Translations under genes and position numbers: made by a program | Shown here: piece by piece, positions 1,767 through 42,706 of the stretch | How the letters are laid out: each line of letters begins with the position of its first letter | Numbering within the stretch: the stretch's first letter is position 1 | Notes under the pieces: generated by a model | The model's database searches: none | What the model was told of the DNA's origin: nothing | What the model saw: only the letters and a program-made list of their open reading frames with translations | Source of the DNA: Candidatus Micrarchaeia archaeon | Lineage (GTDB): Archaea; Micrarchaeota; Micrarchaeia; CAILAH01 | DNA length: 64,000 bases | Direction of reading: 5' to 3' | Assembly (NCBI GenBank): GCA_038874595.1 | Contig: JAVZCB010000004.1 | Location: 65,061-129,060 of the forward strand

Positions 1767-2342
1767 ATGGTAAAGGTAATATGTGTCACTGGAATGCGTG
1801 GAGGGGGTAAAACTGTATTCGGAGGAATTGCACGATCAATGGGGCTACCTATATACGAGATGCGCACAATAGTTGTTGAGATGATGGAAAAGGAGAGCAT
1901 TGAGATAAGCAACAGGAATATCCGCGAATATGCAAAAAGCATACGTGAGCAGTTCGGAAAGGATGTGGTTGCGAAAAAGATGGTAGAACGGATCGGCAAT
2001 ACCCATACCAAAGATGATGTTATAGTTATTGTTGGGATACGTGGGATGTATGAGACAAGGACATTCAGGGAAGCTTTCGGGGAAAAAAATGTTATCTTAC
2101 TTGCCATATACGCACCCCCAAAATTGCGGTATGAACGCCTTGTTAAAAAGGAAGCTGGGATAAAAGAGAATAACAGCTATGAGGAGTTTCTTTGGAGTGA
2201 TGAGATGGAATTGGGGTTTGGAGTCGCAAAGGCGATTGCGCTTGCAGATGTTATGATTGTTAATGACGGCACGATTGAGGAATACACTGAAAATTGCAGA
2301 AAGATTATCAGGAAAATAATCGATGGGGAGGTGAAAGTATGA
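1767..2342 (+). CDS. P-loop nucleotide kinase, dephospho-CoA kinase-like (UPF0200-like)
   Basis: N-terminal GMRGGGKT Walker A; GIRG; AD-x-x-I-x-NDGT. Confidence 0.75.
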   Translation: MVKVICVTGMRGGGKTVFGGIARSMGLPIYEMRTIVVEMMEKESIEISNRNIREYAKSIREQFGKDVVAKKMVERIGNTHTKDDVIVIVGIRGMYETRTFREAFGEKNVILLAIYAPPKLRYERLVKKEAGIKENNSYEEFLWSDEMELGFGVAKAIALADVMIVNDGTIEEYTENCRKIIRKIIDGEVKV

Positions 2343-3052
2343 TGAAATTGAATTTTGACTATGGAAAGGAGGGGTTTTATTATGAGAGTGCAAGCCTTGA
2401 GGACGGGCTTGTAGATGCATATAATGCTATAGGGGATATCCCATATTCGCTGCTTGGGATAAGTGCAGAAAAAATCCGCCTGGAAATATCAAAAATCCAG
2501 GCAGCAGATTTTGAAAGCGTGCTTTCGCAGGTAAGAATGGCTGAGATCATAAAAGGCGCCGGCGGTGCAGAATTTGCACACCTGTGCGAGTCGGTGGTTT
2601 TTGACGAGCTTGTCAGAAAATATGTTGGTGAAGTTATACCTGTGCGCAAAGTTGGTCTAAAATCCCCACAATTCAAGGGAAAGATGGTATTCATGAATGA
2701 CACAAAGGACTGGATAATAGTAAAAAAAGCCACTGTATCCAAGGATACCACGCCGCGCGAGGCCGCTGCATTCCTGTTTGGGGTAAAAGCGGCCATATTA
2801 TCAAAATACTTATCACTCAAATATCCTGAGAGGGGTGCTCAAGCAGCTACAATGGCAAAGGCGCTTAAGGGAAAGCGAAAAAGCCTGGGTGCCCTGAAAG
2901 ATGTATATAATGCCAGCGGAAAAAACGTATGTGCATTTATGGAAGGTGCAGCACTGCTTGGGTATACGCTTACGCCGACCCAGGATGCGATTAAAGAGGC
3001 ATTCCCTGAGCTGAAGCTTCCTGGGATAAGAGGGCGAAAACCAAAGGGGTAA
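2339..3052 (+). CDS. Conserved archaeal hypothetical protein (DUF2666-like C-terminal half)
   Basis: ATGA overlap with the upstream stop; basic C-terminus FPELKLPGIRGRKPK; family recalled from memory, not searched. Confidence 0.5.
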   Translation: MMKLNFDYGKEGFYYESASLEDGLVDAYNAIGDIPYSLLGISAEKIRLEISKIQAADFESVLSQVRMAEIIKGAGGAEFAHLCESVVFDELVRKYVGEVIPVRKVGLKSPQFKGKMVFMNDTKDWIIVKKATVSKDTTPREAAAFLFGVKAAILSKYLSLKYPERGAQAATMAKALKGKRKSLGALKDVYNASGKNVCAFMEGAALLGYTLTPTQDAIKEAFPELKLPGIRGRKPKG

Positions 3053-3132
3053 ACACATAGGTTATTGGCGAGGGATGGCAATTCAATGGAGATGATAAAG
3101 TATATATAATAAAATGTACCTAATTTTATTGG

Positions 3133-6100
3133 ATGTTTATGCAAAGGCCGCAGTTATCGGTAGCATTGTTTATGCTATTAATCTTAACTGTTGCACCGGT
3201 ATCTGCAAAGCTGGTTAGCACGGCTGGAAGCAAGAACATCACAACAGCTGAAATACATATTGAAATGCTCCCTGAGCATAAGTATAATGTCACAGTTATA
3301 GTGTATGAATTAACACAATATATGGCAAGCAAGGAAGAAATAGAAACTGCTGCGGCAAGTGGTGGCTTTGTAGGTTCTGGGGCAGTGATGATGCCGTTGG
3401 CGTATGCACCTGTAAAACTTCTTGTAGGAAATAATATTTATGCTGTTGGTACAACCGCGGCAGATGGGAAAGCTAATTTTATTGTTGATACGGACCCCAA
3501 CAAAATGACATTTGATTCGCGCGGCTGCACCGAGGTTTATGCGCTGTATAGCGGTGACCAGAAGCACCTTCCATCCCAAAGCAAAAGTGAGATTATATGC
3601 AAGGATTCATCAGCGATTATAACACCTGCACTTATAGAGATAACCGGTATCATAAAGGAAAGAGAAAGGCTTCAAAATGCATGTATGCTTTTCTTTGTTC
3701 TGATAGGTTTTCTTGTTGCCGGCCTTTATGCCTCTGGGAAAGACCCATTGAGGCTCCTTGATATCACGACACCCCGGCTACCCGGGGCACGTAGGAAACC
3801 TGAAATAAAGGTAAGCTTTAACGAAGATAAGTTCAAAACACTCCGCGCAACACAGCTTAAGATGGTGGAAGAGTTTGATAACCAGATTAAGACAACTGCA
3901 AAAACAATTGCACGGAATGCATCAAGTGTAAGAAATGCCAACGGTATTGCAAGAAAACGTGAAGAGCAGAGAATATACGACAAGATAATTGATGAGATAA
4001 GTGGCATAAGAGATGCCTACAAAAAGAGATTGAAAGAGCAGACCGGCGGGTTACCTGTTAAGTCTGCCATTATGGTTGATAAGAAGTTGTTTGAGGGGAT
4101 GTATAAGGATATTGCAAATGCTCTAGTAAAAAATGCTTATGAGCATATCAAAGAGCCAGAAAACAAGGTACGCAAGCAGATTAACACGGAGTGGGGCGAG
4201 AATGGGCGACAGCAGAATACAATTAAAAAGATTGCTGAGGCCAGGCACGCTGCAGACTTAATTTCACTTACCCAAAGAGGGCCTACCTCTCCTGTTATGA
4301 AAGGGTTGGGGTACACCGGGACAATAAGCGATATAAGAAGAAAAGCCGAGGCAACCACTGGGATAGGATATGCTGTTAGGGTGGTTGACAACGTGCGTGG
4401 TTATGTTAATATGGCCGTCCAGTACGGGAAGTACTCATCAAAGTATGCCTCCACGGCCGTTGGGTATAAATTGGCAAAAAATGCGGAAGAGAAGGCGAGG
4501 AAAGAACTAAGGTCATTGCAGGAAAGTTATGACAGGGAAAGCGAAGCATTTGCGCGCAAGTATCGTGGGCTGAAACCGCTTGCTCAGTATTCTGATTTTG
4601 AGGATATTCAAAAGGATGCTGCAGGGCTCAATATAACAGTCCCAATTAAAGATTATCATGAAAGGCAGCTAAAGCTTGAGCAGATCAAACAAAAGATAGA
4701 CCAGCAGAAGGAGGAGGTTGAAAAGCTTAGCAAGAAAACCGCAGAGCAATGGGAAAAATTCGAGCCTGTTTATTACACTGGTGCACAGATACCTGATATA
4801 ATCAAGACAGACAAGGTTGCAACGATGCGTGTGAGTGCGCTTGCAAAGGAAGTGCTCAATGACATAAACCATCGCCTGTTTTATGAGCTGAGGCAAAGGG
4901 GGCTTATGACCGAAGATGAGATTGATAGGTTTAATGGTAAGTTGCAGGGGATCCCTGATATTGCAAAAAGGCGTGAGGCCATATTTGACAAGTTCAGGGA
5001 GCTTGGAAAAGAGGATCTATACAACGCGGTTATGAGCGAGAAACTTTACGTGGAAGTGATAAATTACGATGATAAAGAGAGGGGTTTCTATAAAAATGAT
5101 GATAACTCCGGGTACTACACACTGCAACAAATCGCGGAGATTGCTGAGAAAAACATTAATTCAACCAGCTATGAGTCATCTGCCCTTGTGATTGGCGCTG
5201 CAAGGGCGATTGCTGCAAACCCCATCAAGTTTGAGGCGCTTGTTGAGACACAGGAGCAGCAGCTCAGGAGATATATTGAGCTTGATGAGTTCGTTAAAAG
5301 TGATGTGATACAGGTATGTGTAAGAAGCGGTATGAAGAAAGGTATAGAGTACCTTATGAAGACTGAAAAAATAGAACCAGCCGCAAGAATAAGGGAAACA
5401 CACGCACAATACATAGGAGATGAAGTCCTTATTGAGTTGTGGGGCAAGAGATTAAGCAAAAAACATGAGCGTTTTAGGGGCAGATTAAAAAACATAAGTG
5501 AAGAGGAAACTGCATTCCTTATATACAGCGAGGCGTTCAAGCGTGTTTTATCATACGTGAATAAAAAATATGCCGGCGGGAAGATTAGCTATTCAGACCG
5601 GGATATCAACCTTGTGCGGCTACGTTATGCGAGAGAGATGGCCGAGCTTGAAAAAAGAGGAATAAGAGACCAAGAGGAGCGGCAGCGCAGGGAAGATAAA
5701 ATAAGAAATGCAGCCATTAATGGCATAATTGATGCAAGCAAAATTTTAGTTGACCAGAGCGATAGGGATGATATCTATAATGCGTTCACCACGAGCGAGC
5801 AAATAGTTGCCGACCCGCAAAACGTAAAGAAAATGCTAAAGGATGAGGCACTTTTGGAAGCTGCAGTTATTGAATGGTCGGCACTAATGGCACTTTACAG
5901 GGCTACTGGTATTACCGGGCTTACCGGCCTTAAGCAGAACATTGGGGATTTGGCAAACAGTGCGGAGTGGGAGCAAACGTGCAGGAAGGTGCTCTTTGAA
6001 AGGGCGCGAGAATTCAATGCGAATAAGAAACATCTTCTGTTAAGATTGAATAATGAGCTTGGAAACATTGTTAACTCTGAGAGAGCAAAAACAATGGATG

Positions 6101-9100
6101 CGGAGGACCTGCTCCTTGCAATAGATAAGGTTGCAAATGAGGTCGTTTATGATTCGCTGATGGAGTTGTTTAGAGAGGTTAGCCGTGAGAAGGGTTACGA
6201 GAATTTCTACAGAACAGAAATGATAAGGGGTAAGGAGCACATATTTGTCAAAGGGTTTGTGGACCCAACAATTGAGGAAACGCCAAGCCTTGTTACACTT
6301 TACAAGAAAGAGCTGCCAAATATGTCAGAGCGCTTAATGGCTATTATTAAAGACGAGCTTGCGAAAAGAGGTATCCAGGATCCGGAGAAATATGCACAAA
6401 ATTATGCAAACTATCACGATACTATTTCCTACAAATATCCTATGCTGCATCCTGGTGCGTACCCTCTTAAGGATGCGTTGCATAAGTACGCTTGGATACA
6501 AGAGATTGGAAACAACTATCTTGCGTGCCCCAAATTTGCACCTGATTATGAAACGATGGGTGCTCCGGATAAGATGGTTAATGCTGGTGTTGCGGAGATA
6601 GAAACTGAGATTGTAGAAGATAACCGTAAAGTTAAGGTAAAACGGAAAGTTGTGCTCCCAGTTCAGGATACATTTGCGAGGAAAGCGGCCGCGTTCCTTT
6701 CTACCCAGGCAAACCAGTTCCTGACCGGCGGGTATATTGGGACGATGGCAGAGGCCGCTGCGACAACAGTTACGTATACACGGCACGGTGCATTCCTTAA
6801 GAAGCTTGTCCAGCCGTATCAGGGGAAGGAGGGGTTTGTAAAGGATGTCACAAGGAATGAAGCGCTTGCTGAGAAGCTGTTGGAAGCATACAAGCTAAGG
6901 TACCTGCTTGAGAAAAGGAAGAGCTTAAAAGACACTGAGCTTGAGATGGTATTAAAAGAGCTAAGCCCAGATAAAATAAAAGATTCGATATTGGCCGAGC
7001 TTGAAAGCATCAGAGCTAAAAAGGAGCGTGAGAAAGTCCCGGAAGCTGCCAATATGGATATATCGCAAGTTGATAATCTTATAAATGAACGCGTTGCCGC
7101 GATGCAAAATGAGACAGACCTAAGGAAATTTGATGAGATGGACACATATATAAACGAGCTGCGGGAGTACAGGGATATTCTAAAGTGCATAGACACAATA
7201 AAGGGGATTTCATTTGTAGTTACTGGTGCTGATTTTGGGAAAGACCCAAAAAAAGCTCTACAAGACCTTAATCTCAACATAGAGGTTGAAAAAGAAAAAC
7301 TCGATAAAATGATTGCACAAGTTAAGCCCTACGTTGGAGAGTATGTAATGCAGGAATTGCTCAATGACCTGCTTGTTAAGAGCGGGAGCTATGCCAAAGA
7401 AAAGGGGGAAGAGCTTGTATATGTTACGCAGGAGATTGAGTTTGTTGACAGGGTGGCGGTGGATTCTCTATATACTTCAATTACTAATGAGGTGTCAAAG
7501 GCAGGCCTTGATAAAAACGAGTATGCTATGCTCCAGCCATACCTAGCGCCACCTAAGACTGCTGAGGAGCTTGAGAGGAACTATGAAGAGATAATGAAAC
7601 TCCTTAAGAAAATAAGAGAGGACCGGCTAAACGCAGTAAAAGATGACGTTGACGCACTTGATATGGCTGGCAGAACGGAAGCTGCCGTGAAAAAGAAGTA
7701 TTCCAGGAATATAGATAAGCTTATTGCTGATACTGACTCCTGGAAAGAAGGTTTAAGGTCTTTAAGAAGTGAGCTTATAGGATTGGCTTCAACTGTGCCA
7801 GAAGGTAAGAGAGCGATTGGGATCATTGATACAACAATCGCTTCCGGTAACGCTGAGGGCGCGTGCAATGAATTGATAAAAACGCTTGAAGAAGCCAAAA
7901 ACAAAAGTGGAGTGAGTGATTCTAATGCCCAAAAGCTGGATAGACTGCTTGGCTCGGTGAAAAATTTGGTCACAAAGGCGCAGGCACTTGACAATAGTGC
8001 GGCTGAGCTCGATAAGAGTGCAAAAGAGATTGCCGCACGGATAGCTGCTGACCCAGAATTTGCTAGAGCGCTTGAAATCATTTCAAGGTCTCCAGAGGCC
8101 GCAATTAGTGATATGGCTACTGGAATAAGAACTGTGAAGGATGGGCGTGAACTATCTACTGCTATTGATAACATCTTTGCAGCAATAAAAAACGAAAGAA
8201 GCAGGCTATTGCAGGGGGTATCTCTTATTGAGCAACAGGAGGAAGAGCTCATAATCACAACAGAAGATAAGATAAGAGCGCTTGCAGAACGGAGGAGAGC
8301 GATGCAAAAACGCAAAGAGAGCATAGAAGCGAACATCCACATTTACTCTGCAATAACGCCGTGGTATTTCTGGAAAGCTACTACAATTAGATACTCGAGT
8401 GCGTTGCTCGTAAGGGTATGGAGATACCTGAAGGAGAAATTCACTCGGCAAGAGATTGATAGGGAAACGCGGCGCAGGTCATATTTCTCAAACGGTAGCC
8501 TTGTCCAAGAGGTGTTTGAGTATTCACGGCTTGTTAAAGACAGAAAAGGGGAAATGACTGAGTTTGAAAACTTAATGGCACAGCACGCGCGCAACCTTGC
8601 ATACCTCACTGAAAAATTCCTTGTGCGCGCTTTTGGCATGTATGCATCATTTGAGGCCGGGATGCATACAAGAAAGAAAGCGTATGGATTAAACTTTTCT
8701 GGTGAGGCGGGTTACCAATTCGCCGGCCCACTGCCATCAACATTAATGCAGCAAATAACCACTTATGGAAGATTTGGGAATGCTGGCTGGTTTACATCAA
8801 TGCTGCTTGCATACCCGATACGTAAAGCACAGCAGACATATGCACGCAGGTATCCGTTGCTCAAACTTATATCTGGCATTCCTGCTGTATATGAGCCAAT
8901 GAAGAGCAGTACAAGCACATTCAAGGGCACTGTTAAAGGAATGATGACTGCAATGCTCTATATGAGATACAAGGACAAGTATGCACGTATGGGAGAGATG
9001 ATAAGGTCCACTGCCAAGGATACGGCACCGAGGGCATTCTTCCCATATCTTTTAACATCAAACCCGTATGGTGAAATGAGAATCAGTGAATTGCTGGAGC

Positions 9101-9822
9101 TTGCAGGGGACGGGTTCAGGACATCGCCACGCGGGCCGAGGGATATGTTGAACTACCTGCTTTACAAGCCGAATGATATAGTTGTGGACTTCCAGGACAT
9201 AATATACTCAATGAAAGACGGCAGGTCAATGAAGAAGACGCCTGAGCACCTGATGGATGTAGGCATTTATGGTGTTGTAGGAAATTCAGGGTTCATTGCA
9301 GGCAGGGAGATAAACTTCATTAATACTGCGCTTGGCGGGCCTGAATCAATGTATCAAAACCGGGCATTCAACATGTTCAACTATAACCCACAGCTTAGCA
9401 TACCACAGATGAGGTATTCTGCATATGGTGATATGTACAAGAGGATGTCAAAACCGATAGATATTGCAGAAGAGATGATACACCTAACACAAGCATCGCA
9501 GAGAATAGCTGTTGAGGCTCTCATCGTGCCTCCGCTAATACTTGCAACTACCTATTTTGGAGGATATATGGCAAACCTGATGTGGAATAGCCATACAATG
9601 CGTGCAATATCAAATGCAAGCGGTAGTGGGATGGCACTGTTCTTTGCTGGGAGCATAGGTGCCATAGGTATGATTTATAGGTATGAGAAGCTAAACTCAC
9701 TTAAAAGGATTGCACGCATACCTTATATGAGCGATGAATGGAAGACATATATAAAATTCAGTGAACGTATGAGAAATATGCATATGGGAACTTACAAATC
9801 AGAGGTATTTTACCATGAATAG
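3133..9822 (+). CDS. Giant (2229 aa) membrane protein of unknown function
   Basis: Signal peptide, beta-rich Ig-like region, TM at about aa 184-200, long charged helical/coiled-coil region, two hydrophobic segments near the C-terminus. Confidence 0.85.
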   Translation: MFMQRPQLSVALFMLLILTVAPVSAKLVSTAGSKNITTAEIHIEMLPEHKYNVTVIVYELTQYMASKEEIETAAASGGFVGSGAVMMPLAYAPVKLLVGNNIYAVGTTAADGKANFIVDTDPNKMTFDSRGCTEVYALYSGDQKHLPSQSKSEIICKDSSAIITPALIEITGIIKERERLQNACMLFFVLIGFLVAGLYASGKDPLRLLDITTPRLPGARRKPEIKVSFNEDKFKTLRATQLKMVEEFDNQIKTTAKTIARNASSVRNANGIARKREEQRIYDKIIDEISGIRDAYKKRLKEQTGGLPVKSAIMVDKKLFEGMYKDIANALVKNAYEHIKEPENKVRKQINTEWGENGRQQNTIKKIAEARHAADLISLTQRGPTSPVMKGLGYTGTISDIRRKAEATTGIGYAVRVVDNVRGYVNMAVQYGKYSSKYASTAVGYKLAKNAEEKARKELRSLQESYDRESEAFARKYRGLKPLAQYSDFEDIQKDAAGLNITVPIKDYHERQLKLEQIKQKIDQQKEEVEKLSKKTAEQWEKFEPVYYTGAQIPDIIKTDKVATMRVSALAKEVLNDINHRLFYELRQRGLMTEDEIDRFNGKLQGIPDIAKRREAIFDKFRELGKEDLYNAVMSEKLYVEVINYDDKERGFYKNDDNSGYYTLQQIAEIAEKNINSTSYESSALVIGAARAIAANPIKFEALVETQEQQLRRYIELDEFVKSDVIQVCVRSGMKKGIEYLMKTEKIEPAARIRETHAQYIGDEVLIELWGKRLSKKHERFRGRLKNISEEETAFLIYSEAFKRVLSYVNKKYAGGKISYSDRDINLVRLRYAREMAELEKRGIRDQEERQRREDKIRNAAINGIIDASKILVDQSDRDDIYNAFTTSEQIVADPQNVKKMLKDEALLEAAVIEWSALMALYRATGITGLTGLKQNIGDLANSAEWEQTCRKVLFERAREFNANKKHLLLRLNNELGNIVNSERAKTMDAEDLLLAIDKVANEVVYDSLMELFREVSREKGYENFYRTEMIRGKEHIFVKGFVDPTIEETPSLVTLYKKELPNMSERLMAIIKDELAKRGIQDPEKYAQNYANYHDTISYKYPMLHPGAYPLKDALHKYAWIQEIGNNYLACPKFAPDYETMGAPDKMVNAGVAEIETEIVEDNRKVKVKRKVVLPVQDTFARKAAAFLSTQANQFLTGGYIGTMAEAAATTVTYTRHGAFLKKLVQPYQGKEGFVKDVTRNEALAEKLLEAYKLRYLLEKRKSLKDTELEMVLKELSPDKIKDSILAELESIRAKKEREKVPEAANMDISQVDNLINERVAAMQNETDLRKFDEMDTYINELREYRDILKCIDTIKGISFVVTGADFGKDPKKALQDLNLNIEVEKEKLDKMIAQVKPYVGEYVMQELLNDLLVKSGSYAKEKGEELVYVTQEIEFVDRVAVDSLYTSITNEVSKAGLDKNEYAMLQPYLAPPKTAEELERNYEEIMKLLKKIREDRLNAVKDDVDALDMAGRTEAAVKKKYSRNIDKLIADTDSWKEGLRSLRSELIGLASTVPEGKRAIGIIDTTIASGNAEGACNELIKTLEEAKNKSGVSDSNAQKLDRLLGSVKNLVTKAQALDNSAAELDKSAKEIAARIAADPEFARALEIISRSPEAAISDMATGIRTVKDGRELSTAIDNIFAAIKNERSRLLQGVSLIEQQEEELIITTEDKIRALAERRRAMQKRKESIEANIHIYSAITPWYFWKATTIRYSSALLVRVWRYLKEKFTRQEIDRETRRRSYFSNGSLVQEVFEYSRLVKDRKGEMTEFENLMAQHARNLAYLTEKFLVRAFGMYASFEAGMHTRKKAYGLNFSGEAGYQFAGPLPSTLMQQITTYGRFGNAGWFTSMLLAYPIRKAQQTYARRYPLLKLISGIPAVYEPMKSSTSTFKGTVKGMMTAMLYMRYKDKYARMGEMIRSTAKDTAPRAFFPYLLTSNPYGEMRISELLELAGDGFRTSPRGPRDMLNYLLYKPNDIVVDFQDIIYSMKDGRSMKKTPEHLMDVGIYGVVGNSGFIAGREINFINTALGGPESMYQNRAFNMFNYNPQLSIPQMRYSAYGDMYKRMSKPIDIAEEMIHLTQASQRIAVEALIVPPLILATTYFGGYMANLMWNSHTMRAISNASGSGMALFFAGSIGAIGMIYRYEKLNSLKRIARIPYMSDEWKTYIKFSERMRNMHMGTYKSEVFYHE

Positions 9823-11902
9823 CAAAAACACATATATGATGTGGCTTATACTGATAGGCGTGCTTGGGGCAGTAATGCTCGTTGGCTGCCTGCAAAAGCC
9901 ATCAGATTACAAAACTTATGTTATTAATGCATCAACAAGCAAAATCAATTTTGACCAGTGCACGTGCATGCTGTGCACGAACTCTTCCGGGCACACTTAT
10001 GTTGACATATTCACGAGCGGGCTTGAGAGCGGCTCGTGCTTTTTTGCAAGCAACTGTTCACGTGCGTACATATACAATTACCTGACCGATAACAAGAAGA
10101 ACTATGTGCGTGATTTCCTAATTGGCCAGGGTGGGTCATACACGGAATATGAGGAATCAAACCTGAGGTGTGACCTGCAGGAAGGCTATGTGGTAAAGAT
10201 ACTATACGGGAAAAACAGGCCACCGTTCTATAACAGGAAGAAATTCTTTGGGACATATGACACATCAGAAGCTGATACCGTGGAATGTGCGCTTAAGAAA
10301 GGTGCAATACCTTTCTACATTATATATACAAAAGGTACTTACTACGGGACAGACTGGATACCTGACTTTATGAAAAGTACTGTGAAGGACCGTTTTTCAA
10401 CAGAGCCGGTGTTCATTGCACCAGAGGCCTTGTTTGAGGGGAAAAATGCAAAAGAGATTGCTGCCCAGATAGATGTGATCTATGATAATTGTGGTGTTAG
10501 GCAAGAAACAGGAAACTGCATTAAGTATAACCCGCAAACCGGCGATTGCATACAGAAGGAGACACTATATGTGCGAGGGTGCAAAGTTGCACTCTACCCT
10601 AAACAGGATACTGATGCGCTGATATTTGAGACATTGGATGTCATGAAAGCCAATCATCCGAAACAGATGGATAAGGTAAGTGCTGTGATACTTACGCTTA
10701 ATGTGGACAAAGGTGGGTTCAACTGTGATGGTGGCCAGGCAATTGCAAACATTACAAACAGGAGCAGGTTTGTGCTCAATAGATACGGAAAGCCATCATT
10801 TCTCCTGTTCTCGATTGATAAAAGCTGTGCCGGTGAAGCCTCAAACATAGCGCTTGAGTTTTATAATGGGATACCTTTCATGCGGATGACGGGAATTTTT
10901 GGGGCAGCATATTCCCAATTTTATGATTATGAGGACAACCCGCTGAATAACGGGATAAACGCATACAGCTTTGCAAATGCAGTAAGCGAAAAACCTGCGT
11001 TTAATACTGGAATGGATGACTGGATACGCTTATGCAAATACTACAATGAGCCGCCTTACAAGAGAGAGCCGATAGTGTTCCAGAGCAATGGTGTTAATAT
11101 CACAACCGCATGCGATTTCCTGGGCACATATGGTATGGTAACCTTAGGTGAGGATGAAACAGAACTTGCAAAAATAAACTCATACTCAACAGATAAAGTT
11201 AATGTGAAAAGTGGAAAAGTTGATTATGACATATGCATACCTGAGATTGATTTTGGTAGCATAGAAAGCGTGGCCAAACCGTGGTCTGGGTGGAGTTCGT
11301 TCACTGTGCCAGGGCTTGTTCAGGAGGATGGCGCCAATGCGGATAGTAAAGAAACCAAGGATGGCAGTGGTAGTGGCCAGGGACAACAGCAGCCAGTTAC
11401 ATATTCAACGATGTGCTGGGAGGGGTATCCAGAAGTTGAGGTTGTGGCCGAGAGATGCGGTATTAGCAGGCATCTTGTGAGGGCGTTTAAGAAACTTGGT
11501 GTACCCCTGATAAAGTGTGATGACTGGTATGATGTTGAGGGAGACGTAACCAAAAGTGGGCTTGTAAACCTTGCTGAGCTAAAACCAACCGGCGGTTATG
11601 AAACTGCATTTGGGAAGATTGCGTTTATGTATGTCCTGAAGAAGAGCTCTCCTGATTTGTATGCGCAATTGCTGGATAAAAAATCATCATTATCAAATTC
11701 GGTTGGGGGGAATCTGTATTTGTTATGTAATGGCGTACAAGCAAACAAGGATGGCCAGCAAGTAACCGTGCGAAATGAAAAACCATGTCAGGTACTTAAG
11801 GCATATTATGAGTATAAGGAAGAGTGCCCCATAGGCAAACTGCAGGAGAGAATCAGGCAGATGACAAGCGTGCAAAGCGGCGGCAAGGGTAGTAGCAGTT
11901 GA
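9815..11902 (+). CDS. Cys-rich secreted/lipoprotein, unknown function
   Basis: Hydrophobic leader ending LVGC (lipobox-like); many Cys; overlaps upstream gene by 8 nt. Confidence 0.75.
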   Translation: MNSKNTYMMWLILIGVLGAVMLVGCLQKPSDYKTYVINASTSKINFDQCTCMLCTNSSGHTYVDIFTSGLESGSCFFASNCSRAYIYNYLTDNKKNYVRDFLIGQGGSYTEYEESNLRCDLQEGYVVKILYGKNRPPFYNRKKFFGTYDTSEADTVECALKKGAIPFYIIYTKGTYYGTDWIPDFMKSTVKDRFSTEPVFIAPEALFEGKNAKEIAAQIDVIYDNCGVRQETGNCIKYNPQTGDCIQKETLYVRGCKVALYPKQDTDALIFETLDVMKANHPKQMDKVSAVILTLNVDKGGFNCDGGQAIANITNRSRFVLNRYGKPSFLLFSIDKSCAGEASNIALEFYNGIPFMRMTGIFGAAYSQFYDYEDNPLNNGINAYSFANAVSEKPAFNTGMDDWIRLCKYYNEPPYKREPIVFQSNGVNITTACDFLGTYGMVTLGEDETELAKINSYSTDKVNVKSGKVDYDICIPEIDFGSIESVAKPWSGWSSFTVPGLVQEDGANADSKETKDGSGSGQGQQQPVTYSTMCWEGYPEVEVVAERCGISRHLVRAFKKLGVPLIKCDDWYDVEGDVTKSGLVNLAELKPTGGYETAFGKIAFMYVLKKSSPDLYAQLLDKKSSLSNSVGGNLYLLCNGVQANKDGQQVTVRNEKPCQVLKAYYEYKEECPIGKLQERIRQMTSVQSGGKGSSS

Positions 11903-11911
11903 GGTGTGCAT

Positions 11912-12511
11912 ATGCCGGTAGTTGATGGGATAACCTACTCACTATTGGAGAAGGAATTTGCACAGAAGCTTAAAGGGGATGTCAAGCTCTGCCTGCTTAC
12001 CGGGCCTAACTGCCAGCTTTGTGATTCTTTGCGCGAGTTTGGAGAAAAGATTTCAGAAGCTTCAAAAGGAAAAATCATTGTAAGCGAAGAAAATGATATT
12101 AACTGTTGTCCTGGTATAAGGATATTTGATAACCTTATTTATATGGGCATACCGACTGGTAGGCAGACGTGGGTTTTCCTGAATTTTATTATGGATATAA
12201 CACAGGGGAATTACATTATGGATAAGGATGCGCGGGCAAGAGTGATGAAAATTCATACCCCTGTAGAGATTGATGTTTATATAAGTGCGGGTTCGCAGTA
12301 CTCACCATTACAGGTGAGATGGGCATATGAGCTTGCTGCACTAAATAAGAATATCAGGGCGCGTGTAATTGATGGCATGTACTTCCCGGAGATTACAATA
12401 AGAAACCATATCTCAAAGGTTCCAACCACGGTTATTAATAACAGGGTGAGAATAATAGGTGGGGCCACACCTGATGAGATGCTCAGGAAGATTAATGAGG
12501 CAATCCAGTAA
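11912..12511 (+). CDS. Protein disulfide oxidoreductase-like, two thioredoxin folds (PDO / AhpF N-terminal type)
   Basis: CQLC, YMGIPTG, VP cis-Pro motif and GATP; second active site reads SQYS; SD GAGGTG. Confidence 0.8.
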   Translation: MPVVDGITYSLLEKEFAQKLKGDVKLCLLTGPNCQLCDSLREFGEKISEASKGKIIVSEENDINCCPGIRIFDNLIYMGIPTGRQTWVFLNFIMDITQGNYIMDKDARARVMKIHTPVEIDVYISAGSQYSPLQVRWAYELAALNKNIRARVIDGMYFPEITIRNHISKVPTTVINNRVRIIGGATPDEMLRKINEAIQ

Positions 12512-35344: not shown

Positions 35345-36973
35345 TTGCAACGTGAAGCCGCCTGGGCATTCGTGATTGCGCTCCTAATCTTATCCTCAAC
35401 CGCTTACGCGGACAGGATAAAATGGTCAGCTGGATTGGATAGGGATGTCACGGGCGGGCTGATAGTTGATAGTGGGTACATTTATGTAACTGCGCTTGAC
35501 ACGCTTTACAAAATTGACATAATTGATGGAAAAACCATCTGGGCGCTCACACTGAAAGGTACACTTCTCAAGCCGGTTAAGAGTGAATCGCTCGTTATTG
35601 TTGCATCCAAGGAAGGAAGCATATACCTGGTAAATGACCAGACCAAGTCTGTAATGAAAACACTCAACACTAGCGGGGAGATTTTAAACAGCCCGCTGCT
35701 CATTGCAGCTAATGCATATTTCCCTACATCGAAAGGCATTGTAGCAGTAAATACACAAACATCCTCAATCTCCTGGAAGCAGTCGCAGGAATGCAGTGTA
35801 CAGGCAACACCAATTAGCGTCGGTGATATGCTAGTAGTGCCATGCGATAACGGAAATGTGATGCTCATTGCACGCTCAAACGGCGCAATTATCGACCAGA
35901 CAAAATATGATGATGTATTCTGGAAACCATCACCGGCGTTGCAGGACACGCGCGTTATCCTTGGAAGTTTTGGCGGGAAAATATATGCCGTCTCCTCAAA
36001 GTCACCAAAAAATATCGTATGGGTGCGCTCAACACAGGATGGCACAAGTGTTGCTGCGGATGTGTATGCAGACAACAGCAAGATAATAATAACAACTGCC
36101 GGCGGGAAGATATGTTCACTTAACGTTGATGGCAGCCTGAACTGGTGCAGGGATACTTCAAGCGAAGTTGCATCGCGGCCAATAGTTACTGACAGCTGGA
36201 TTTATGCAATAACCGATTCTGGCACTATATATGGGATAAGCCACGATGGCGAGGTTGGTTGGGTATATGAGTCCGGGCTGCAAACCAAGGCAGACATATC
36301 AAAAAAGGGAAGCATGATATATGCGGTTTCAAAGAATGGTACCCTGGCGGCACTGTCTACATCTTCTTGCAACATACTATTTCCTGAGGAGGGAAGCGAT
36401 GTTGCGGGTGTTGAGCAGGTTGAGGTTACAGTTGACCCATACGCTGATATGGAGATAACAAACGTGCAAGTCCGCGTTGAAGGAGGTGCCTGGGTTGACG
36501 CATCAAAGGTAGGGAATGTTTACATTGCCAAGATACCTATCAGCTCAATCCCTGCTGGAAACTCACAGTTGTCCTGTAGGGTTATCAGCAAGGACGGTGA
36601 AGAGCTTCCCCCCTACACTTCAATAAAGATTACCAAATCGGGTGCAGGAAAGAAAATGAAGGTTGATGCCCCAACAAATGTAGGGTTTGGCTCATCGTTC
36701 ATGGTTAAGATATCAGATGAAAATGGTGCACCTCTTGATAAGGCTACAGTTATATTTGGTGCACTGCAATATACCGATGTAAATGGTGCGCTCAAAATAA
36801 CACCGCCCGCAAAAGGTATTTACAGGCTAGAAATTAGGCGCGCAGGGTATGTGCCTTTCAGGCAGGATGTTACTGTAAGTGATGATTACACAATAATAAT
36901 AGTGATTGGAGGGTTGTTTATTCTTGCAGTTGCAGTGTTCTACATACTTTATAAAAAATGGATGGAGGAGTGA
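35345..36973 (+). CDS. Secreted PQQ-like (BamB-type) beta-propeller protein with Ig-like domains and C-terminal anchor
   Basis: Signal peptide; repeated G-x-x-x-W blades; C-terminal TM followed by a charged tail. Confidence 0.8.
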   Translation: MQREAAWAFVIALLILSSTAYADRIKWSAGLDRDVTGGLIVDSGYIYVTALDTLYKIDIIDGKTIWALTLKGTLLKPVKSESLVIVASKEGSIYLVNDQTKSVMKTLNTSGEILNSPLLIAANAYFPTSKGIVAVNTQTSSISWKQSQECSVQATPISVGDMLVVPCDNGNVMLIARSNGAIIDQTKYDDVFWKPSPALQDTRVILGSFGGKIYAVSSKSPKNIVWVRSTQDGTSVAADVYADNSKIIITTAGGKICSLNVDGSLNWCRDTSSEVASRPIVTDSWIYAITDSGTIYGISHDGEVGWVYESGLQTKADISKKGSMIYAVSKNGTLAALSTSSCNILFPEEGSDVAGVEQVEVTVDPYADMEITNVQVRVEGGAWVDASKVGNVYIAKIPISSIPAGNSQLSCRVISKDGEELPPYTSIKITKSGAGKKMKVDAPTNVGFGSSFMVKISDENGAPLDKATVIFGALQYTDVNGALKITPPAKGIYRLEIRRAGYVPFRQDVTVSDDYTIIIVIGGLFILAVAVFYILYKKWMEE

Positions 36974-36984
36974 AAGGTGATGTG

Positions 36985-37713
36985 ATGGTTGGCAAAAATG
37001 CAATTGCTATTGGCGTTATTACGACGGTGCTCATTGCCGTGGTGATGATGGGCTGCACTGGTGGAGACAGTACAAAATCGTGCGCGAAAGACTCCGACTG
37101 CCTCACCTGGCAGAAATGCAGCGACAAGGGGGTTTGTGTTGTGCGTGAGGGATTCTGCGGCAGTGCAGCAGACTGCGGTGCCACTGATAAGTATGATTGC
37201 GATAAGAAATCCCACAAATGCGTTTTCAAAAAGGGATTTTGTGCAACAGATGCCGACTGTGAAGGGTGGCAACAGTGCGACACTGTGCTTGGCAAATGCC
37301 AGGTTAGGGCAGGGTTCTGTGGCTCAAACGAGTATTGTGAGGGAAGCTGGCAGTATTGCAGTGAGGAGACACACACGTGCAAGCCACTGAAAGGAAAATG
37401 CCTAAATGATTTTGACTGCAGCGCGTGGGAGTTGTGTGATGTATCCACAAAGACGTGCAAGGTTATGGCTGGCAGGTGCAACAGCGATACTGACTGCAAT
37501 GCGTGGGAGCAGTGCGATGTTAAAACTAACTACTGCAAGGTTAAAGCAGGATTCTGCGGAAATGAAAGGGATTGCAAGGATTGGGAATATTGCAATTTAC
37601 AGACAAGAAGATGCGTTCCAAAGGCCGGCAGCTGCAATGTTGATGAGGACTGTGGCAAAGGTGAATACTGCGATAAGAGAAGCCATGCGTGCAAAGTCCC
37701 ATCAAATACCTGA
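36985..37713 (+). CDS. Cys-rich tandem-repeat lipoprotein (8 four-Cys repeats)
   Basis: Leader ending MMGC; eight ~26-aa C-x2-D-x-DC-x2-W-x2-C-x6-C units. Confidence 0.8.
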   Translation: MVGKNAIAIGVITTVLIAVVMMGCTGGDSTKSCAKDSDCLTWQKCSDKGVCVVREGFCGSAADCGATDKYDCDKKSHKCVFKKGFCATDADCEGWQQCDTVLGKCQVRAGFCGSNEYCEGSWQYCSEETHTCKPLKGKCLNDFDCSAWELCDVSTKTCKVMAGRCNSDTDCNAWEQCDVKTNYCKVKAGFCGNERDCKDWEYCNLQTRRCVPKAGSCNVDEDCGKGEYCDKRSHACKVPSNT

Positions 37714-37763
37714 TTTCGGCTTTTTCTTTCTTTTTAAAAAAGCATTTTAATAGTTCTGCAGAT

Positions 37764-38990: not shown

Positions 38991-38997
38991 GAAGTTT

Positions 38998-41255: not shown

Positions 41256-41354
41256 GCATATAATTGCATCCCTATTAATATATCCTTCTCAGCTCCGACG
41301 TTATGTTTATAAATGTTCCTTCTGAATATGGTATTACACTTTGGAGGTGTATGA

Positions 41355-41579
41355 ATGGGAGTAAAGATTGGTTCTGAAAAAATAAAGCGCGAAAGCGGCT
41401 ACCTCTACTTTGTTGGGAAGGATGGTTATGTTTGGGCAGTCCCAATGAGGCACAACAAGGGTGGCAGGAAGAAGAAGGTCGGCACTGAAAAGATCCAGAA
41501 GGAGCCAGGGTTCCTTTACTATGTCGGTGACGACGGATATGTTTACAGAGCAAAGATGAAGAATGCTGGAAGGAGATAA
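41355..41579 (+). CDS. Small basic protein with an internal two-fold repeat
   Basis: TTTATAAA box, SD GGAGGTG and T-rich trailer; repeats KIGSEKIKRESGYLYFVGKDGYV and KVGTEKIQKEPGFLYYVGDDGYV. Confidence 0.85.
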   Translation: MGVKIGSEKIKRESGYLYFVGKDGYVWAVPMRHNKGGRKKKVGTEKIQKEPGFLYYVGDDGYVYRAKMKNAGRR

Positions 41580-41639
41580 TTCTCTTTCCTCTCTTCTATT
41601 CTAATTTTTATTTAGGATTACTAAACCCCGATATCATTT

Positions 41640-42575: not shown

Positions 42576-42706
42576 ACCCTTTTAATCATCACTTCAACAA
42601 TTCGGAGCGTATGGTATTTATATATGTTTCTATTTTAATTAACGTGGGGCATAAGAAGGAATAGCTTATTATTTGTTTATTAATCATAAATAATCCTGGT
42701 AACCCG

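What the first reader, a model, noticed from the sequence alone, without database searches (positions are those of the whole stretch)
3133..12511. Giant membrane protein, Cys-rich lipoprotein and disulfide oxidoreductase: candidate undescribed envelope machine
Seen: three tightly coupled genes (8-nt overlap; SD overlapping a stop codon) behind their own TATA-like box near 3100. The 2229-aa protein has a signal peptide, only about 150 aa of beta-rich domain and one TM followed by GKDPLRLLDITTPRLP. About 1900 aa of charged helical/coiled-coil sequence follows, then two more hydrophobic segments. Inference: most of the protein is cytoplasmic and tethered at both ends, the opposite of typical giant repeat adhesins. 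It could be a scaffold, conduit or ruler for a host-contact structure in a symbiotic archaeon, partnered with an external disulfide-bonded lipoprotein and a folding catalyst.
Basis: partly seen in the sequence, partly recalled or inferred. Interest (0 to 1): 0.72.

Follow-up and report, generated by a model that had tools for sequence, protein, structure and literature searches.

The report
Micrarchaeota giant membrane tether and lipoprotein
A tiny symbiont-type archaeon (Micrarchaeota) encodes a 2229-residue membrane protein that lies almost wholly inside the cell, next to a cysteine-rich surface lipoprotein with a sugar-cleaving-enzyme fold; this uncharacterised gene pair recurs across the phylum beside arrays of six related membrane proteins and is a candidate cell-envelope or cell-contact apparatus.

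Summary
The three genes are real and tightly packed, but only the first two form a conserved unit.

**Giant protein (P0001).** It has a signal peptide, one Ig-like ectodomain, one TM helix and an invariant juxtamembrane motif (G-x2-P-x4-D-I-T-T-P). About 1900 Cys-poor, helix-rich residues follow, then a C-terminal membrane hairpin. Residues 1-650 define a large family with no Pfam, NCBIfam, PHROG or PDB match. Every named member I looked up is from Micrarchaeota.

**Lipoprotein (P0002).** It has a confidently predicted clan GH-A (beta/alpha)8 barrel (Z 16-18). A degenerate remnant of an SLT lytic-transglycosylase domain follows.

**Linkage.**
- The lipoprotein gene directly follows the giant's gene in about 39 of 51 sampled genomes that hold both.
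- In other families the pair sits beside six paralogous membrane-protein genes. Here that array lies elsewhere, at G000 C3:36963-45143.
- Residues ~650-2229, including an orphan C-terminal domain, were found only in this family.

**Third gene.** It is a cytoplasmic PDO-type thioredoxin-fold protein with one active site lost. Its linkage is family-level synteny, not a sign of an external folding catalyst.

**Earlier scan notes.** The scan had already noted the six-paralog arrays with giant Cys-rich lipoproteins in at least 10 other genomes, calling them VirB6/CedA-like, and had read this giant gene once before. I could not confirm the VirB6 link by sequence.

Function remains inferred.

The parts
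3101..3109 (+). TATA-like box TATATATAA, 24 nt upstream of the ATG; likely promoter of a leaderless transcript
   Evidence: Read directly from the sequence. The promoter function is inferred, not tested.
3133..9822 (+). Giant type-I membrane protein P0001 (2229 aa). It is the 'c1a' member of a Micrarchaeota-specific family.
   Evidence: ORF and translation. Orthologues in 8 of 8 family genomes. The family profile finds 437 clusters at E<=1e-10. No Pfam, NCBIfam or PDB match.
3133..3207 (+). Signal peptide, residues 1-25, AXA-type site VSA|KL
   Evidence: Hydropathy 2.28. The alignment of 19 homologues shows no class III pilin-type leader.
3232..3606 (+). Single Ig-like (invasin/intimin, macroglobulin-type) ectodomain, residues 34-158, with Cys132 and Cys156 and two N-x-S/T sequons
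   Evidence: AF2 pLDDT above 90. VIA-align Z 9.7-10.2, rmsd 2.1-2.9 A over 78-94 residues, to 1cwv, 6tqd and 4zjh.
3679..3735 (+). Transmembrane helix, residues 183-201
   Evidence: Hydropathy 2.28. AF2 helix 178-200. Conserved in all family members.
3736..3783 (+). Invariant cytoplasmic juxtamembrane motif GKDPLRLLDITTPRLP, residues 202-217
   Evidence: G202 and P205 are invariant; D210, T212 and P214 are at least 90% conserved in 43 sequences. The exact degenerate DNA pattern gives 26 hits in 185,579 species genomes. All but one are Micrarchaeota or unnamed archaeal MAGs; the exception is a 3.4-kb contig filed under Patescibacteria.
3784..5082 (+). Conserved helical cytoplasmic core of the family, residues 218-650, including a confident antiparallel helical hairpin at 435-548
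   Evidence: Local jackhmmer coverage runs to about residue 650 in most family members. AF2 helices reach pLDDT about 95 at 440-540. Fold matches are only generic helical hairpins.
5083..8499 (+). Family-specific helix-rich extension, residues 651-1789, Cys-poor, without internal repeats
   Evidence: Covered in only about 12-17 clusters. No self-similarity, low Pro+Gly, heptad signal only at 1600-1800. Cys 0.44%.
8500..9492 (+). Orphan conserved C-terminal domain, residues ~1790-2120, with motifs HTR, QFAGP, GPRD, RSMKK..EHL.DVG, FIAGREI and YxNR
   Evidence: 79 invariant columns in 6 orthologues at 35-85% identity. Found only in family f1, 8 of 101 class genomes. No PDB, PHROG or Atlas relative and no shorter stand-alone form.
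9505..9675 (+). C-terminal hydrophobic hairpin, residues 2125-2181, followed by a basic conserved tail (W.TY..SER..NMY.G)
   Evidence: Hydropathy 1.67 and 1.46. A hydrophobic stretch at this place in all 12 aligned orthologues. Membrane insertion is inferred.
9815..11902 (+). Cys-rich surface lipoprotein P0002 (695 aa), the 'c2' partner of the giant
   Evidence: The start overlaps the giant's stop by 8 nt. The lipobox Cys25 is invariant in 23 of 23 homologues and 10 further Cys are invariant. It lies directly downstream of c1a in about 39 of 51 genomes with both.
9962..11194 (+). Clan GH-A type (beta/alpha)8 barrel, residues ~50-460
   Evidence: AF2 pLDDT 81.6, pTM 0.83. Foldseek E 2.6e-5 to GH5, GH53 and GH26. 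VIA-align Z 16-18, rmsd 3.3-3.9 A over 245-280 residues; every row shown is a glycoside hydrolase or glycosidase with a TIM-barrel fold. Glu204 at the beta4 end is kept in 17 of 23; there is no conserved beta7 acid.
11402..11872 (+). Helical C-terminal domain, residues ~530-686: a degenerate remnant of an SLT (lytic transglycosylase) domain
   Evidence: Pfam SLT hits 3 of 17 homologues, best E 2.2e-5. The E-S...GLxQ motif is visible in L016, L017, L019 and L021. hhalign of family f1 against the others gives probability 86% over 34 columns, with the catalytic loop deleted. The window reads LVRAFKKLG with Gly where the catalytic Glu would be.
11912..12511 (+). PDO-type double-thioredoxin-fold protein P0003 (listed as a GTG ORF from 11906). 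N-site CQLC at 12011-12022, C-site replaced by SQYS at 12293-12304. No signal peptide.
   Evidence: TIGR02187 scores 98 bits, below the 185-bit cut-off, and Thioredoxin_3 gives 5.6e-10. PDB 1J08 gives E 9.6e-15 over residues 13-193. Linked only within family f1.

Best explanation
**What it is**
Genes 1 and 2 are the family-f1 version of a Micrarchaeota-wide gene pair, which I call c1a-c2. The pair belongs with arrays of six paralogous polytopic membrane proteins (c0).

**Shown**
- c1a is a type-I membrane protein with one Ig-like ectodomain, one TM helix and an invariant motif at the inner face. A helical region follows whose length varies between lineages from about 350 aa to more than 2000 aa.
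- c2 is a disulfide-rich lipoprotein with a clan GH-A glycosidase-type barrel plus an SLT-type lysozyme-like domain. In this genome the SLT domain is degenerate.
- The two genes are adjacent, co-oriented and here translationally coupled.
- In families f3 and f4 they sit directly beside six c0 genes.
- A paralogous set (c1b, six c0, giant Cys-rich lipoprotein) exists in the same genomes.

**Inferred**
- c2 is exported and lipid-anchored, and binds or trims an envelope or partner-cell glycan. It probably binds rather than hydrolyses, because no full catalytic pair is conserved.
- The Ig domain of c1a pairs with c2 outside the cell.
- The juxtamembrane motif docks c1a to the c0 assembly or another partner inside the cell.
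- The helical interior forms an elongated sub-membrane scaffold. In this family it is lengthened, carries a new conserved globular domain, and is pinned back to the membrane by a C-terminal hairpin.
- The PDO is a cytoplasmic redox protein that is co-transcribed in this genus through local synteny. It is not part of the apparatus.
For: **Gene order**
- c1 is followed directly by c2 in 17 of about 20 fetched loci, and in about 39 of 51 class genomes with both. The other 12 have the two genes on different contigs.
- c1a and c2 were found in the same 15 families. Neither was found in f2, f5, f7, f9 or f11.
- Six c0 genes abut c1a in G016, G030 and G010.
- G000 holds a six-gene c0 array at C3:36963-45143. 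It also holds a second c1 paralog next to six c0 genes split over the ends of contigs C4 and C1.
- A quick tree places the window protein in the c2-linked clade.

**Folds**.

**SLT relationship**.

**Topology**
- Net positive charge follows the TM helix.
- The interior has Cys 0.26% and 0.47 sequons per 100 aa. The cytosolic baseline is 1.25% and 0.46. Secreted proteins of the same genome have 2.5-3.3% and 0.63-0.90.

**Family-specific parts**: the extension and C-terminal domain are confined to f1.

**PDO**.
Against: - There is no experimental or expression evidence.
- No interaction between c1, c2 and c0 has been shown. The link is gene neighbourhood only.
- In this genome and its family the pair is not next to any c0 array.
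- Families f5 and f9 keep one c0 array without a detectable c1 or c2, so the parts are separable.
- Topology rests on hydropathy, charge and composition. No dedicated predictor was run.
- The C-terminal hydrophobic segments are only moderately hydrophobic.
- Beyond residue 226 the c1 cytoplasmic core has almost no conserved single residues.
- The C-terminal domain's fold was not predicted.
- The adjacency count was tallied by hand from two tables.
- The c1 tree is a quick, unfinished run with weak deep support (69).
Confidence: 0.55

Rival explanations
1. The pair is an accessory part of a conjugation-derived (type IV secretion, Ced/Ted-like) machine. In this reading c0 is the VirB6/CedA-like channel and c2 is the VirB1-like wall or glycan hydrolase. 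The c1 protein would be a lineage-specific stator or scaffold, and the machine would move DNA or other macromolecules between the symbiont and a partner cell. This is a more specific version of the best explanation, not its opposite.
For: - SLT domains, the fold of VirB1-type hydrolases (my own knowledge), occur at the C-terminus of c2 homologues.
- Earlier scan notes call c0 VirB6/CedA-like and report a VirB4-type operon in this genome.
- G000 has an AAA_10 (VirB4-type) match at C3:91515-92432.
- In G010 a solitary c0 gene follows an 81-aa two-helix ORF with the layout of a conjugative pilin.
- Ced and Ted are defined by VirB2-, VirB4- and VirB6-like parts (PMC9905601).
Against: - My own sequence tests found no link from c0 to VirB6, TrbL or any solved T4SS chain.
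- No ATPase or pilin gene lies in the window locus or in any of the c0-c1-c2 loci I fetched.
- The VirB4-type hit is 46 kb from the C3 array and on another contig than the window.
- No described T4SS, Ced or Ted has a c1-like subunit.
- The SLT domain here lacks its catalytic Glu.
Confidence: 0.3
2. The pair serves the cell's own envelope, for example S-layer or glycan remodelling, cell shape or division. In this reading c1a is a membrane-anchored cytoskeleton-like tether and c2 an envelope glycan-processing or glycan-binding protein, with no role in host contact.
For: - The genes sit among housekeeping genes (CarS, pyruvate kinase, MscS, GatE, ATP synthase D) in conserved synteny.
- The architecture, long and helical with an anchor at both ends, suits a sub-membrane scaffold.
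- GH-A and SLT folds are typical of wall-remodelling enzymes.
Against: - The pair was not found in five sampled families with genomes at least 89% complete. That argues against a core housekeeping role.
- The catalytic residues of both c2 domains are not conserved.
- From my own knowledge, Micrarchaeota have no murein for an SLT domain to act on.
Confidence: 0.25
3. One reading: a three-gene machine in which the oxidoreductase is the external folding catalyst for the disulfide-bonded lipoprotein.
For: The third gene follows within a few nucleotides (3 to the listed GTG at 11906, 9 to the likelier ATG at 11912), with a Shine-Dalgarno sequence over the stop codon. The lipoprotein has 23 Cys. The PDO gene lies near c2 in all eight family genomes.
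Against: - The PDO has no signal peptide or TM segment.
- Its solved relatives are the PDOs 1J08 and 1A8L, which are cytoplasmic from my own knowledge.
- The C-terminal active site reads SQYS here and CxxS in relatives. One orthologue also lacks the N-terminal site.
- In four of five genera another gene on the opposite strand lies between c2 and the PDO.
- Outside family f1 PDO homologues are not linked to c1/c2, and two of the three such genomes lack c1.
Confidence: 0.04
4. The giant is a surface adhesin whose long helical part is an extracellular stalk.
For: Giant proteins of symbiotic archaea are often adhesins. An Ig-like domain and a signal peptide are present.
Against: - There is only one Ig domain and no repeats.
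- The long part lies after a TM helix that is followed by net positive charge.
- Its Cys and sequon content matches cytosolic, not secreted, proteins of this genome.
Confidence: 0.05

Closest known systems
Ced (Sulfolobales) and Ted (Thermoproteales) DNA-import systems, and monoderm type IV secretion systems
   Same: They are chromosomal archaeal envelope machines built around polytopic membrane proteins. In bacteria, T4SSs include an SLT-type hydrolase (VirB1). c2 homologues end in an SLT domain. Earlier scan notes regard c0 as VirB6/CedA-like.
   Different: The defining trio of VirB4 ATPase, VirB6 pore and VirB2 pilin (PMC9905601) is not in this locus, and I could not show it by sequence for c0. 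No c1-like bitopic Ig-TM-helical subunit and no six-fold paralog array are described there.
Clan GH-A glycoside hydrolases (GH5, GH26, GH53, GH10, GH2 and others)
   Same: P0002 residues ~50-460 adopt the (beta/alpha)8 barrel. VIA-align gives Z 16-18 and rmsd 3.3-3.9 A, and Foldseek gives E 2.6e-5. A Glu sits at the end of strand beta4 in 17 of 23 homologues.
   Different: Sequence identity is 12% or less, with no Pfam match. The Asn-Glu pair reads Pro-Glu and no conserved nucleophile sits on beta7. The barrel is stapled by many invariant cysteines and anchored by a lipobox. It is probably a binding module or an atypical enzyme.
Lytic transglycosylase SLT domain (PF01464; VirB1 and Slt70 type)
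   Same: The C-terminal domain of c2 homologues in other families matches PF01464 and shows the E-S...GLxQ signature. The window's domain aligns to them over the first helices, with hhalign probability 86%.
   Different: In the window protein the catalytic loop is deleted and the Glu position is Gly. PF01464 does not match it, although it does match two other ORFs of this genome.
Protein disulfide oxidoreductase of hyperthermophiles (PfPDO 1A8L, PhPDO 1J08; TIGR02187)
   Same: P0003 aligns over both thioredoxin-fold units, with E 9.6e-15 to 1J08. It keeps the N-terminal CxxC as CQLC.
   Different: It scores 98 bits against a 185-bit cut-off. The C-terminal CPYC reads SQYS here and CxxS in relatives. 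It is therefore a divergent paralog of uncertain activity.
Giant repeat adhesins and SPEARE-type giant proteins of DPANN archaea
   Same: It is a very large protein of a small-genome symbiont-type archaeon, with a signal peptide and an Ig-like domain.
   Different: The topology is the opposite, with about 7% outside and about 86% inside. It has no repeats and no protease, nuclease or lectin domains.

Membership tests
Ced/Ted or type IV secretion system | VirB4/CedB-type ATPase encoded with the system | tested here: not met
   No ATPase lies in the window locus or in the fetched c0-c1-c2 loci. The only AAA_10 match in G000 is at C3:91515-92432, which is unlinked.
Ced/Ted or type IV secretion system | VirB6/CedA-like polytopic pore protein | tested here: inconclusive
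   The c0 paralogs are polytopic and sit next to c1a-c2 in other families. Their profile finds nothing in Pfam or in PDB sequences. I predicted no structure, and the claim comes only from earlier notes.
Ced/Ted or type IV secretion system | VirB2/CedA1-like pilin | tested here: inconclusive
   An 81-aa two-helix ORF precedes a solitary c0 gene in G010, but it has no Pfam match. There is none in the window locus.
Clan GH-A glycoside hydrolase | (beta/alpha)8 barrel fold | tested here: met
   AF2 pTM 0.83. VIA-align Z 16-18 over 245-280 residues and Foldseek E 2.6e-5.
Clan GH-A glycoside hydrolase | Acid/base Glu at the end of beta4, usually as Asn-Glu | tested here: inconclusive
   Glu204 sits in Pro-Glu-Ala after the strand at 199-202. 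It is present in 17 of 23 homologues and is not invariant. Residue-level superposition was not available.
Clan GH-A glycoside hydrolase | Nucleophile Glu at the end of beta7 | tested here: not met
   No acidic residue is conserved after strand 361-366; position 368 reads Q/E/D/S/N/I. The beta6-end position 335 is D in family f1 only.
SLT lytic transglycosylase (PF01464) | Match to the family model | tested here: not met
   P0002 has no Pfam match at E<=1. The G000 genome search finds two other ORFs but not this one. Three of 17 homologues do match.
SLT lytic transglycosylase (PF01464) | Catalytic Glu in the E-S motif | tested here: not met
   The aligned column is Gly (LVRAFKKLG), and hhalign places a deletion at the catalytic loop.
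Protein disulfide oxidoreductase (TIGR02187) | Two thioredoxin-fold units | tested here: met
   TIGR02187 aligns over residues 14-198 with model positions 8-208 of 209. PDB 1J08 aligns over residues 13-193.
Protein disulfide oxidoreductase (TIGR02187) | Score above the curated equivalog cut-off | tested here: not met
   98 bits against a cut-off of 185.
Protein disulfide oxidoreductase (TIGR02187) | CXXC in both units | tested here: not met
   The N-unit CQLC is present, but the C-unit reads SQYS.
Archaeal type IV pilin | Class III signal peptide: short basic leader, then G/A, then a hydrophobic helix kept in the mature protein | tested here: not met
   Foldseek's best hit for the N-terminus is the pilin 9myg, at only E 4.5e-3. 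The leader ends in an AXA-type site, and no conserved G/A cleavage position appears in 19 homologues.
Giant repeat adhesin | Tandem extracellular repeat domains | tested here: not met
   Self-BLAST finds no internal repeats. There is a single Ig domain, and the bulk of the protein has cytosolic-type composition.

The most novel reading that the evidence does not exclude
c1a, c2 and the six c0 paralogs together form a previously undescribed trans-envelope machine specific to Micrarchaeota. Its outer face (Ig domain plus glycosidase-fold lipoprotein) would engage a partner cell's surface glycans. Its variable-length cytoplasmic helical arm would set the geometry of a contact or transfer site, or couple it to the cell interior. 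In this family the arm is a 1900-residue, doubly anchored tether carrying a new conserved, possibly enzymatic, domain. That would make it the long-sought host-contact apparatus of these symbionts.
Probability: 0.25. Interest if true: 0.88.

Novelty: categorically new. Interest (0 to 1): 0.68.

Why it matters
Micrarchaeota and other DPANN archaea depend on host cells, yet no molecular apparatus for contact or exchange is known in this phylum. The co-culture paper I read (PMC8975820) infers dependence on cell-cell contact without naming components.

This work defines three things:
- A large, phylum-restricted protein family with a sharp diagnostic motif.
- Its constant lipoprotein partner, built on glycan-active folds.
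- Their genomic tie to the six-paralog membrane arrays.

Together these give a concrete, testable parts list for an envelope complex.

The giant version is also an unusual membrane-protein design: about 1900 residues inside the cell, pinned to the membrane at both ends. Its conserved C-terminal domain has no detectable relative.

If the complex proves to be conjugation-derived, it would extend the Ced/Ted story to DPANN. If not, it is a new kind of archaeal envelope system.

Tried and rejected
**Searches that found nothing**
- Pfam, NCBIfam, PHROGs and PDB sequence searches of P0001, P0002, the c1 core, the C-terminal domain and c0 gave nothing beyond the PDO and the SLT hits in homologues.
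- The ESM Atlas returned only a low-confidence TIM-barrel hint for P0002, which AlphaFold2 later confirmed. It returned nothing usable for the C-terminal domain.
- A word-indexed search for shorter stand-alone forms of the C-terminal domain found none.

**Readings rejected**
- Pilin: Foldseek's top hit is an archaeal type IV pilin, but at only E 4.5e-3 and with no class III leader.
- Polymorphic toxin or effector (conserved N-terminus, variable C-terminus): within the family the C-terminal domain is the best-conserved part, with no swapping.
- Upstream gene c3 (2339-3052) as a fourth component: its core domain occurs class-wide, unlinked, and in families without c1.
- Mobile element or virus origin: GC content matches the surroundings and the synteny with housekeeping genes is conserved.

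**Steps that failed or were wasted**
- A solitary c0 gene in G010 was checked for a neighbouring VirB4 gene; none was found.
- The search for related loci could not use my alignments.
- A c0 class search at E<=1e-60 was too strict to show absence. Five genomes were re-searched at 1e-3.
- The careful tree search did not finish, so only the quick tree is used.

Full report
**Source and observation**

The window is G000:C4:65061-129060 of a 918-kb genome, 93.5% complete. Close homologues of its proteins are filed under Candidatus Micrarchaeota or Micrarchaeia. An intron-bearing tRNA and a 5S rRNA gene are also in the window.

The junctions are as described:
- ATGAATAG is shared by the giant's stop and the second gene's start, and a GAGGT lies 9 nt upstream.
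- GAGGTG lies over the TGA stop of the second gene. This makes the ATG at 11912 the likelier third start.
- TATATATAA at 3101-3109 lies 24 nt before the first ATG, as expected for a leaderless archaeal mRNA.

Neighbouring genes are housekeeping. Upstream are an S49 peptidase, CDP-archaeol synthase and an AAA_18 kinase. Downstream are MscS, pyruvate kinase, ATP synthase D and GatE.

**The giant protein**

Hydropathy gives a signal peptide (1-25), one strong TM helix (183-201) and two weaker hydrophobic segments near the end, at 2125-2147 and 2163-2181. AlphaFold2 on residues 1-660, with 43 aligned sequences, gives:
- a confident beta-sandwich at 35-156;
- the TM helix at 178-200;
- a helical remainder with a very confident antiparallel hairpin at 435-548.

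The sandwich matches invasin, intimin and macroglobulin Ig-like domains at Z about 10 and rmsd 2.1-2.9 A. The helical part matches only generic hairpins. Foldseek's best hit, an archaeal type IV pilin, is weak (E 4.5e-3), and the leader is not of class III type.

There are no internal repeats. A heptad signal stands out only at about 1600-1800, so 'helical' is fair but 'coiled coil throughout' is not.

Three observations place residues 202-2124 in the cytoplasm:
- Net positive charge follows the TM helix.
- Cys content is 0.26%. Secreted proteins of this genome have 2.5-3.3% and soluble-looking ORFs 1.25%.
- N-x-S/T density is 0.47 per 100 residues, equal to the cytosolic baseline of 0.46 and below that of the secreted proteins, 0.63-0.90.

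All 12 aligned orthologues keep a hydrophobic stretch, followed by a basic tail, at the C-terminus. The 'tethered at both ends' reading is therefore supported in silico but is not proven.

**A large family defined by its N-terminal module**

The single protein finds full-length orthologues in all 8 genomes of its family. In other families only residues about 130-230 match, in proteins of 243 to 3881 aa.

An alignment of 19 N-terminal modules shows a common plan:
- signal peptide;
- one Ig-like domain with a T-D-x-x-G signature and conserved cysteines;
- the TM helix;
- the motif Y-x-S-G-x-x-P-L-x-L-F-D-I-T-T-P-R-L-P, with G202 and P205 invariant and D210, T212 and P214 at least 90% conserved.

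A profile search of 1.84 billion representative proteins gives 1657 hits at E<=1e-3 and 437 at E<=1e-10. Most match the whole module at the N-terminus of proteins of about 400 to 2900 aa. A minority are multi-Ig proteins that match the Ig part only.

None of 38 members has a Pfam domain at E<=1e-5. Of ten representative hits looked up, five carry a source name, always 'hypothetical protein' from Micrarchaeota, Micrarchaeia or Anstonellales. One 839-aa fragment on a 2.6-kb contig is filed under Halobacteria.

I scanned 185,579 species genomes for the exact back-translated motif P-L-x-L-[LF]-D-I-T-T-P-x-L-P, and 26 places matched. All are Micrarchaeota or unnamed archaeal MAGs, apart from one 3.4-kb contig binned as Patescibacteria. 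That contig comes from a sample series that also yielded Micrarchaeia MAGs. My own estimate is about one match by chance.

**What is conserved and what is new in the giant**

Local iterative searches show that family-wide homology ends near residue 650. Residues 650-2229 are shared by only about 12-17 clusters.

The last part, about 1790-2120, is the best-conserved stretch among orthologues. It has 79 invariant columns across 35-85% identity. Its polar motifs are HTR, QFAGP, GPRD, RSMKK..EHL.DVG, FIAGREI and YxNR.

Its profile finds this domain only in family f1, in 8 of 101 sampled class genomes, and always as the C-terminus of the giant. It has no relative in PDB sequences, PHROGs or the ESM Atlas, and no shorter stand-alone form.

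Gigantism is therefore a lineage feature. Orthologues in other families range from 544 to about 1890 aa.

**The lipoprotein**

P0002 has no sequence-level relative in Pfam, NCBIfam or PDB. The lipobox Cys25 and ten further cysteines are invariant in 23 homologues.

AlphaFold2 gives a good model, with pLDDT 81.6 and pTM 0.83. Residues about 50-460 form a (beta/alpha)8 barrel. All 50 VIA-align rows shown are TIM-barrel glycoside hydrolases or glycosidases, largely clan GH-A families (GH1, 2, 5, 10, 26, 39, 42, 51, 53 and others). They score Z 15-18 at rmsd 3.3-4.4 A over 245-285 residues. Foldseek gives E 2.6e-5.

A Glu (E204, in P-E-A) follows strand beta4 in 17 of 23 homologues, but no acid is conserved at the nucleophile position. 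The barrel is therefore a glycan-binding module or an atypical enzyme, not a proven hydrolase.

In several other families the C-terminal domain carries the lytic-transglycosylase signature R-A-I-x-E-Q-E-S...G-L-A-Q. It matches Pfam SLT in 3 of 17 homologues, best E 2.2e-5. In family f1 the domain aligns only over the first helices, with hhalign probability 86%. The catalytic loop is deleted and a Gly stands at the catalytic position. PF01464 does find two other ORFs in this genome.

**Linkage**

Clustering the ORFs of 22 loci shows the c1 gene followed directly by the c2 gene almost everywhere. Runs of a third family, c0, lie next to c1 in many loci. The c0 proteins are polytopic, 300-540 aa, with a conserved L-P-x-G-x-x-L-R-x-F and a C-terminal G-G-D...S-K-L-I.

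In 101 evenly drawn class genomes:
- c1 is found in 58 and c2 in 52, in the same 15 families.
- Neither was found in f2, f5, f7, f9 or f11, which together make up 37 sampled genomes.
- By hand count, c2 lies immediately downstream of the best c1 hit in about 39 of 51 genomes with both.
- In the other 12, all fragmented assemblies, the two genes are on different contigs.

Most c1-bearing genomes have two c1 genes. A quick tree separates a c2-linked clade, c1a, which contains the window protein, from a second clade, c1b. Deep support is weak, at 69.

Full c0 maps of five genomes show two layouts:
- System A is six c0 genes plus c1a plus c2. It forms one co-directional block in G016 and is divergent in G010 and G030.
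- System B is c1b plus six c0 genes. A giant Cys-rich lipoprotein lies about 8 kb beyond the array in G016. It shares a 125- to 230-residue piece of the c2 barrel in some genomes.

In G000, System B is split over the starts of contigs C4 and C1. A c0 gene is cut in two there, with its N-terminal part at C4:3-686 and its C-terminal part at C1:67-336. The contigs therefore probably abut.

A six-gene c0 array also lies at C3:36963-45143. I take it to be System A's array by elimination, since System B's six c0 genes are accounted for. It lies on another contig than c1a-c2. Family f1 has therefore separated the pair from its array.

Families f5 and f9 keep a single six-gene array with no detectable c1 or c2. 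Families f2 and f7 have no c0 either. The parts are associated but separable.

**The oxidoreductase**

P0003 aligns over both thioredoxin-fold units of the archaeal protein disulfide oxidoreductases (1J08 E 9.6e-15, 1A8L E 1.3e-11). It scores below the TIGR02187 cut-off, at 98 against 185 bits.

It has no signal peptide or TM segment. The N-site is CQLC. The C-site is SQYS here and CxxS in three orthologues, one of which also lacks the N-site.

In four of five genera of the family another gene lies between c2 and the PDO. The block c1a, c2, (gene), PDO, (gene), pyruvate kinase, MscS is syntenic across the family. Outside the family PDO homologues are unlinked, and two of the three such genomes lack c1. 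I read the tight junction here as local compaction, not functional coupling.

The upstream gene (2339-3052) is also only a syntenic neighbour. Its core domain occurs class-wide, unlinked, and also in families without c1. One weak hit in that search is in an unpublished genome, G085. No claim here rests on it.

**Relation to known systems and to earlier notes**

Earlier notes of this scan describe the six-paralog arrays with giant Cys-rich lipoproteins in at least 10 genomes, including this one at C3. They call the paralogs VirB6/CedA-like and tie them to a VirB4-type operon. The giant gene itself had been read once before from another window.

I treated these notes as leads:
- I confirmed the arrays and their homology to the arrays next to c1a.
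- I confirmed an AAA_10 match at C3:91515-92432.
- My sequence tests found no link from c0 to VirB6, TrbL or any solved chain.
- A solitary c0 gene in G010 follows an 81-aa two-helix ORF but has no ATPase gene near it.

The SLT domain of c2 homologues is an independent, modest pointer to a secretion-type or wall-breaching machine. Ced and Ted are defined by VirB4-, VirB6- and VirB2-like parts, and no c1- or c2-like subunit is described (PMC9905601).

Large SLT-domain proteins have been noted in Pacearchaeota and Woesearchaeota, not in Micrarchaeota (PMC8204110). Papers on cultivated Micrarchaeota infer contact-dependent exchange but name no apparatus (PMC8975820). Searches for Micrarchaeota with VirB4, type IV secretion or giant proteins found nothing on these genes.

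**Verdict**

The best-supported mechanism is an envelope complex with three parts:
- a glycan-engaging, disulfide-stapled lipoprotein outside;
- a bitopic protein linking it, through an invariant inner-face motif, to the inside;
- a long sub-membrane helical scaffold, extended in this family and pinned back to the membrane.

The steps from gene neighbourhood to physical complex, and from fold to glycan binding, are inferred.

Noticed in passing
G000:C4:1-8009 and G000:C1:1-12045 (outside the window): A second, paralogous system: a c1b gene (C4:4371-8009, 1212 aa, motif ASGRNPFGVVDFTAPRG), then six c0 genes, a 257-aa ORF and a 2876-aa lipoprotein with 71 Cys. One c0 gene is cut by the contig ends, with its N-terminal part at C4:3-686 and its C-terminal part at C1:67-336, so contigs C4 and C1 probably abut.
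   Followed up: partly
G000:C3:34109-45146 (outside the window): A six-gene c0 array at 36963-45143, with a divergently oriented 1066-aa protein carrying 18 Cys. That protein is neither c1 nor c2 by my profiles. By elimination it is probably the array that sits next to c1a-c2 in other families.
   Followed up: partly
G000:C2:42229-42522 and G000:C2:133149-133454: Two ORFs (307 and 390 aa) match the bacterial-type SLT lytic transglycosylase model above its cut-off (E 7.7e-14 and 2.8e-10). This is unexpected in an archaeon without murein.
   Followed up: no
window 42707-42864: A tRNA gene of 158 nt (Rfam 38.9 bits), so presumably intron-bearing. ARAGORN found no tRNA anywhere in the window.
   Followed up: no
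window 2339-3052: A 237-aa protein without any Pfam match lies directly upstream of the giant in all family f1 genomes. Its ~80-residue core (residues 112-192) occurs in 55 of 101 class genomes, unlinked to c1.
   Followed up: partly
L033:8386-10177 (G010:C1): A solitary c0 paralog (336 aa) is preceded by an 81-aa ORF with two hydrophobic helices, the layout of a conjugative pilin, and by a 169-aa four-TM ORF. No ATPase gene is nearby and none of the three has a significant Pfam match.
   Followed up: partly
G012:C3:51066-58024, G017:C3:359171-366308, G037:C1:187281-194487: Families f5 and f9 carry a single six-gene c0 array, and G017 and G037 also carry a solitary c0. No c1 or c2 was detected with my profiles. 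Families f2 and f7 showed no c0 at all.
   Followed up: partly
L043 (JBAZMO010000078.1, 3.4 kb) and P0169 (2.6-kb contig): Two short contigs carrying c1-family genes are filed under Patescibacteria and Halobacteria. They are probably binning errors.
   Followed up: no
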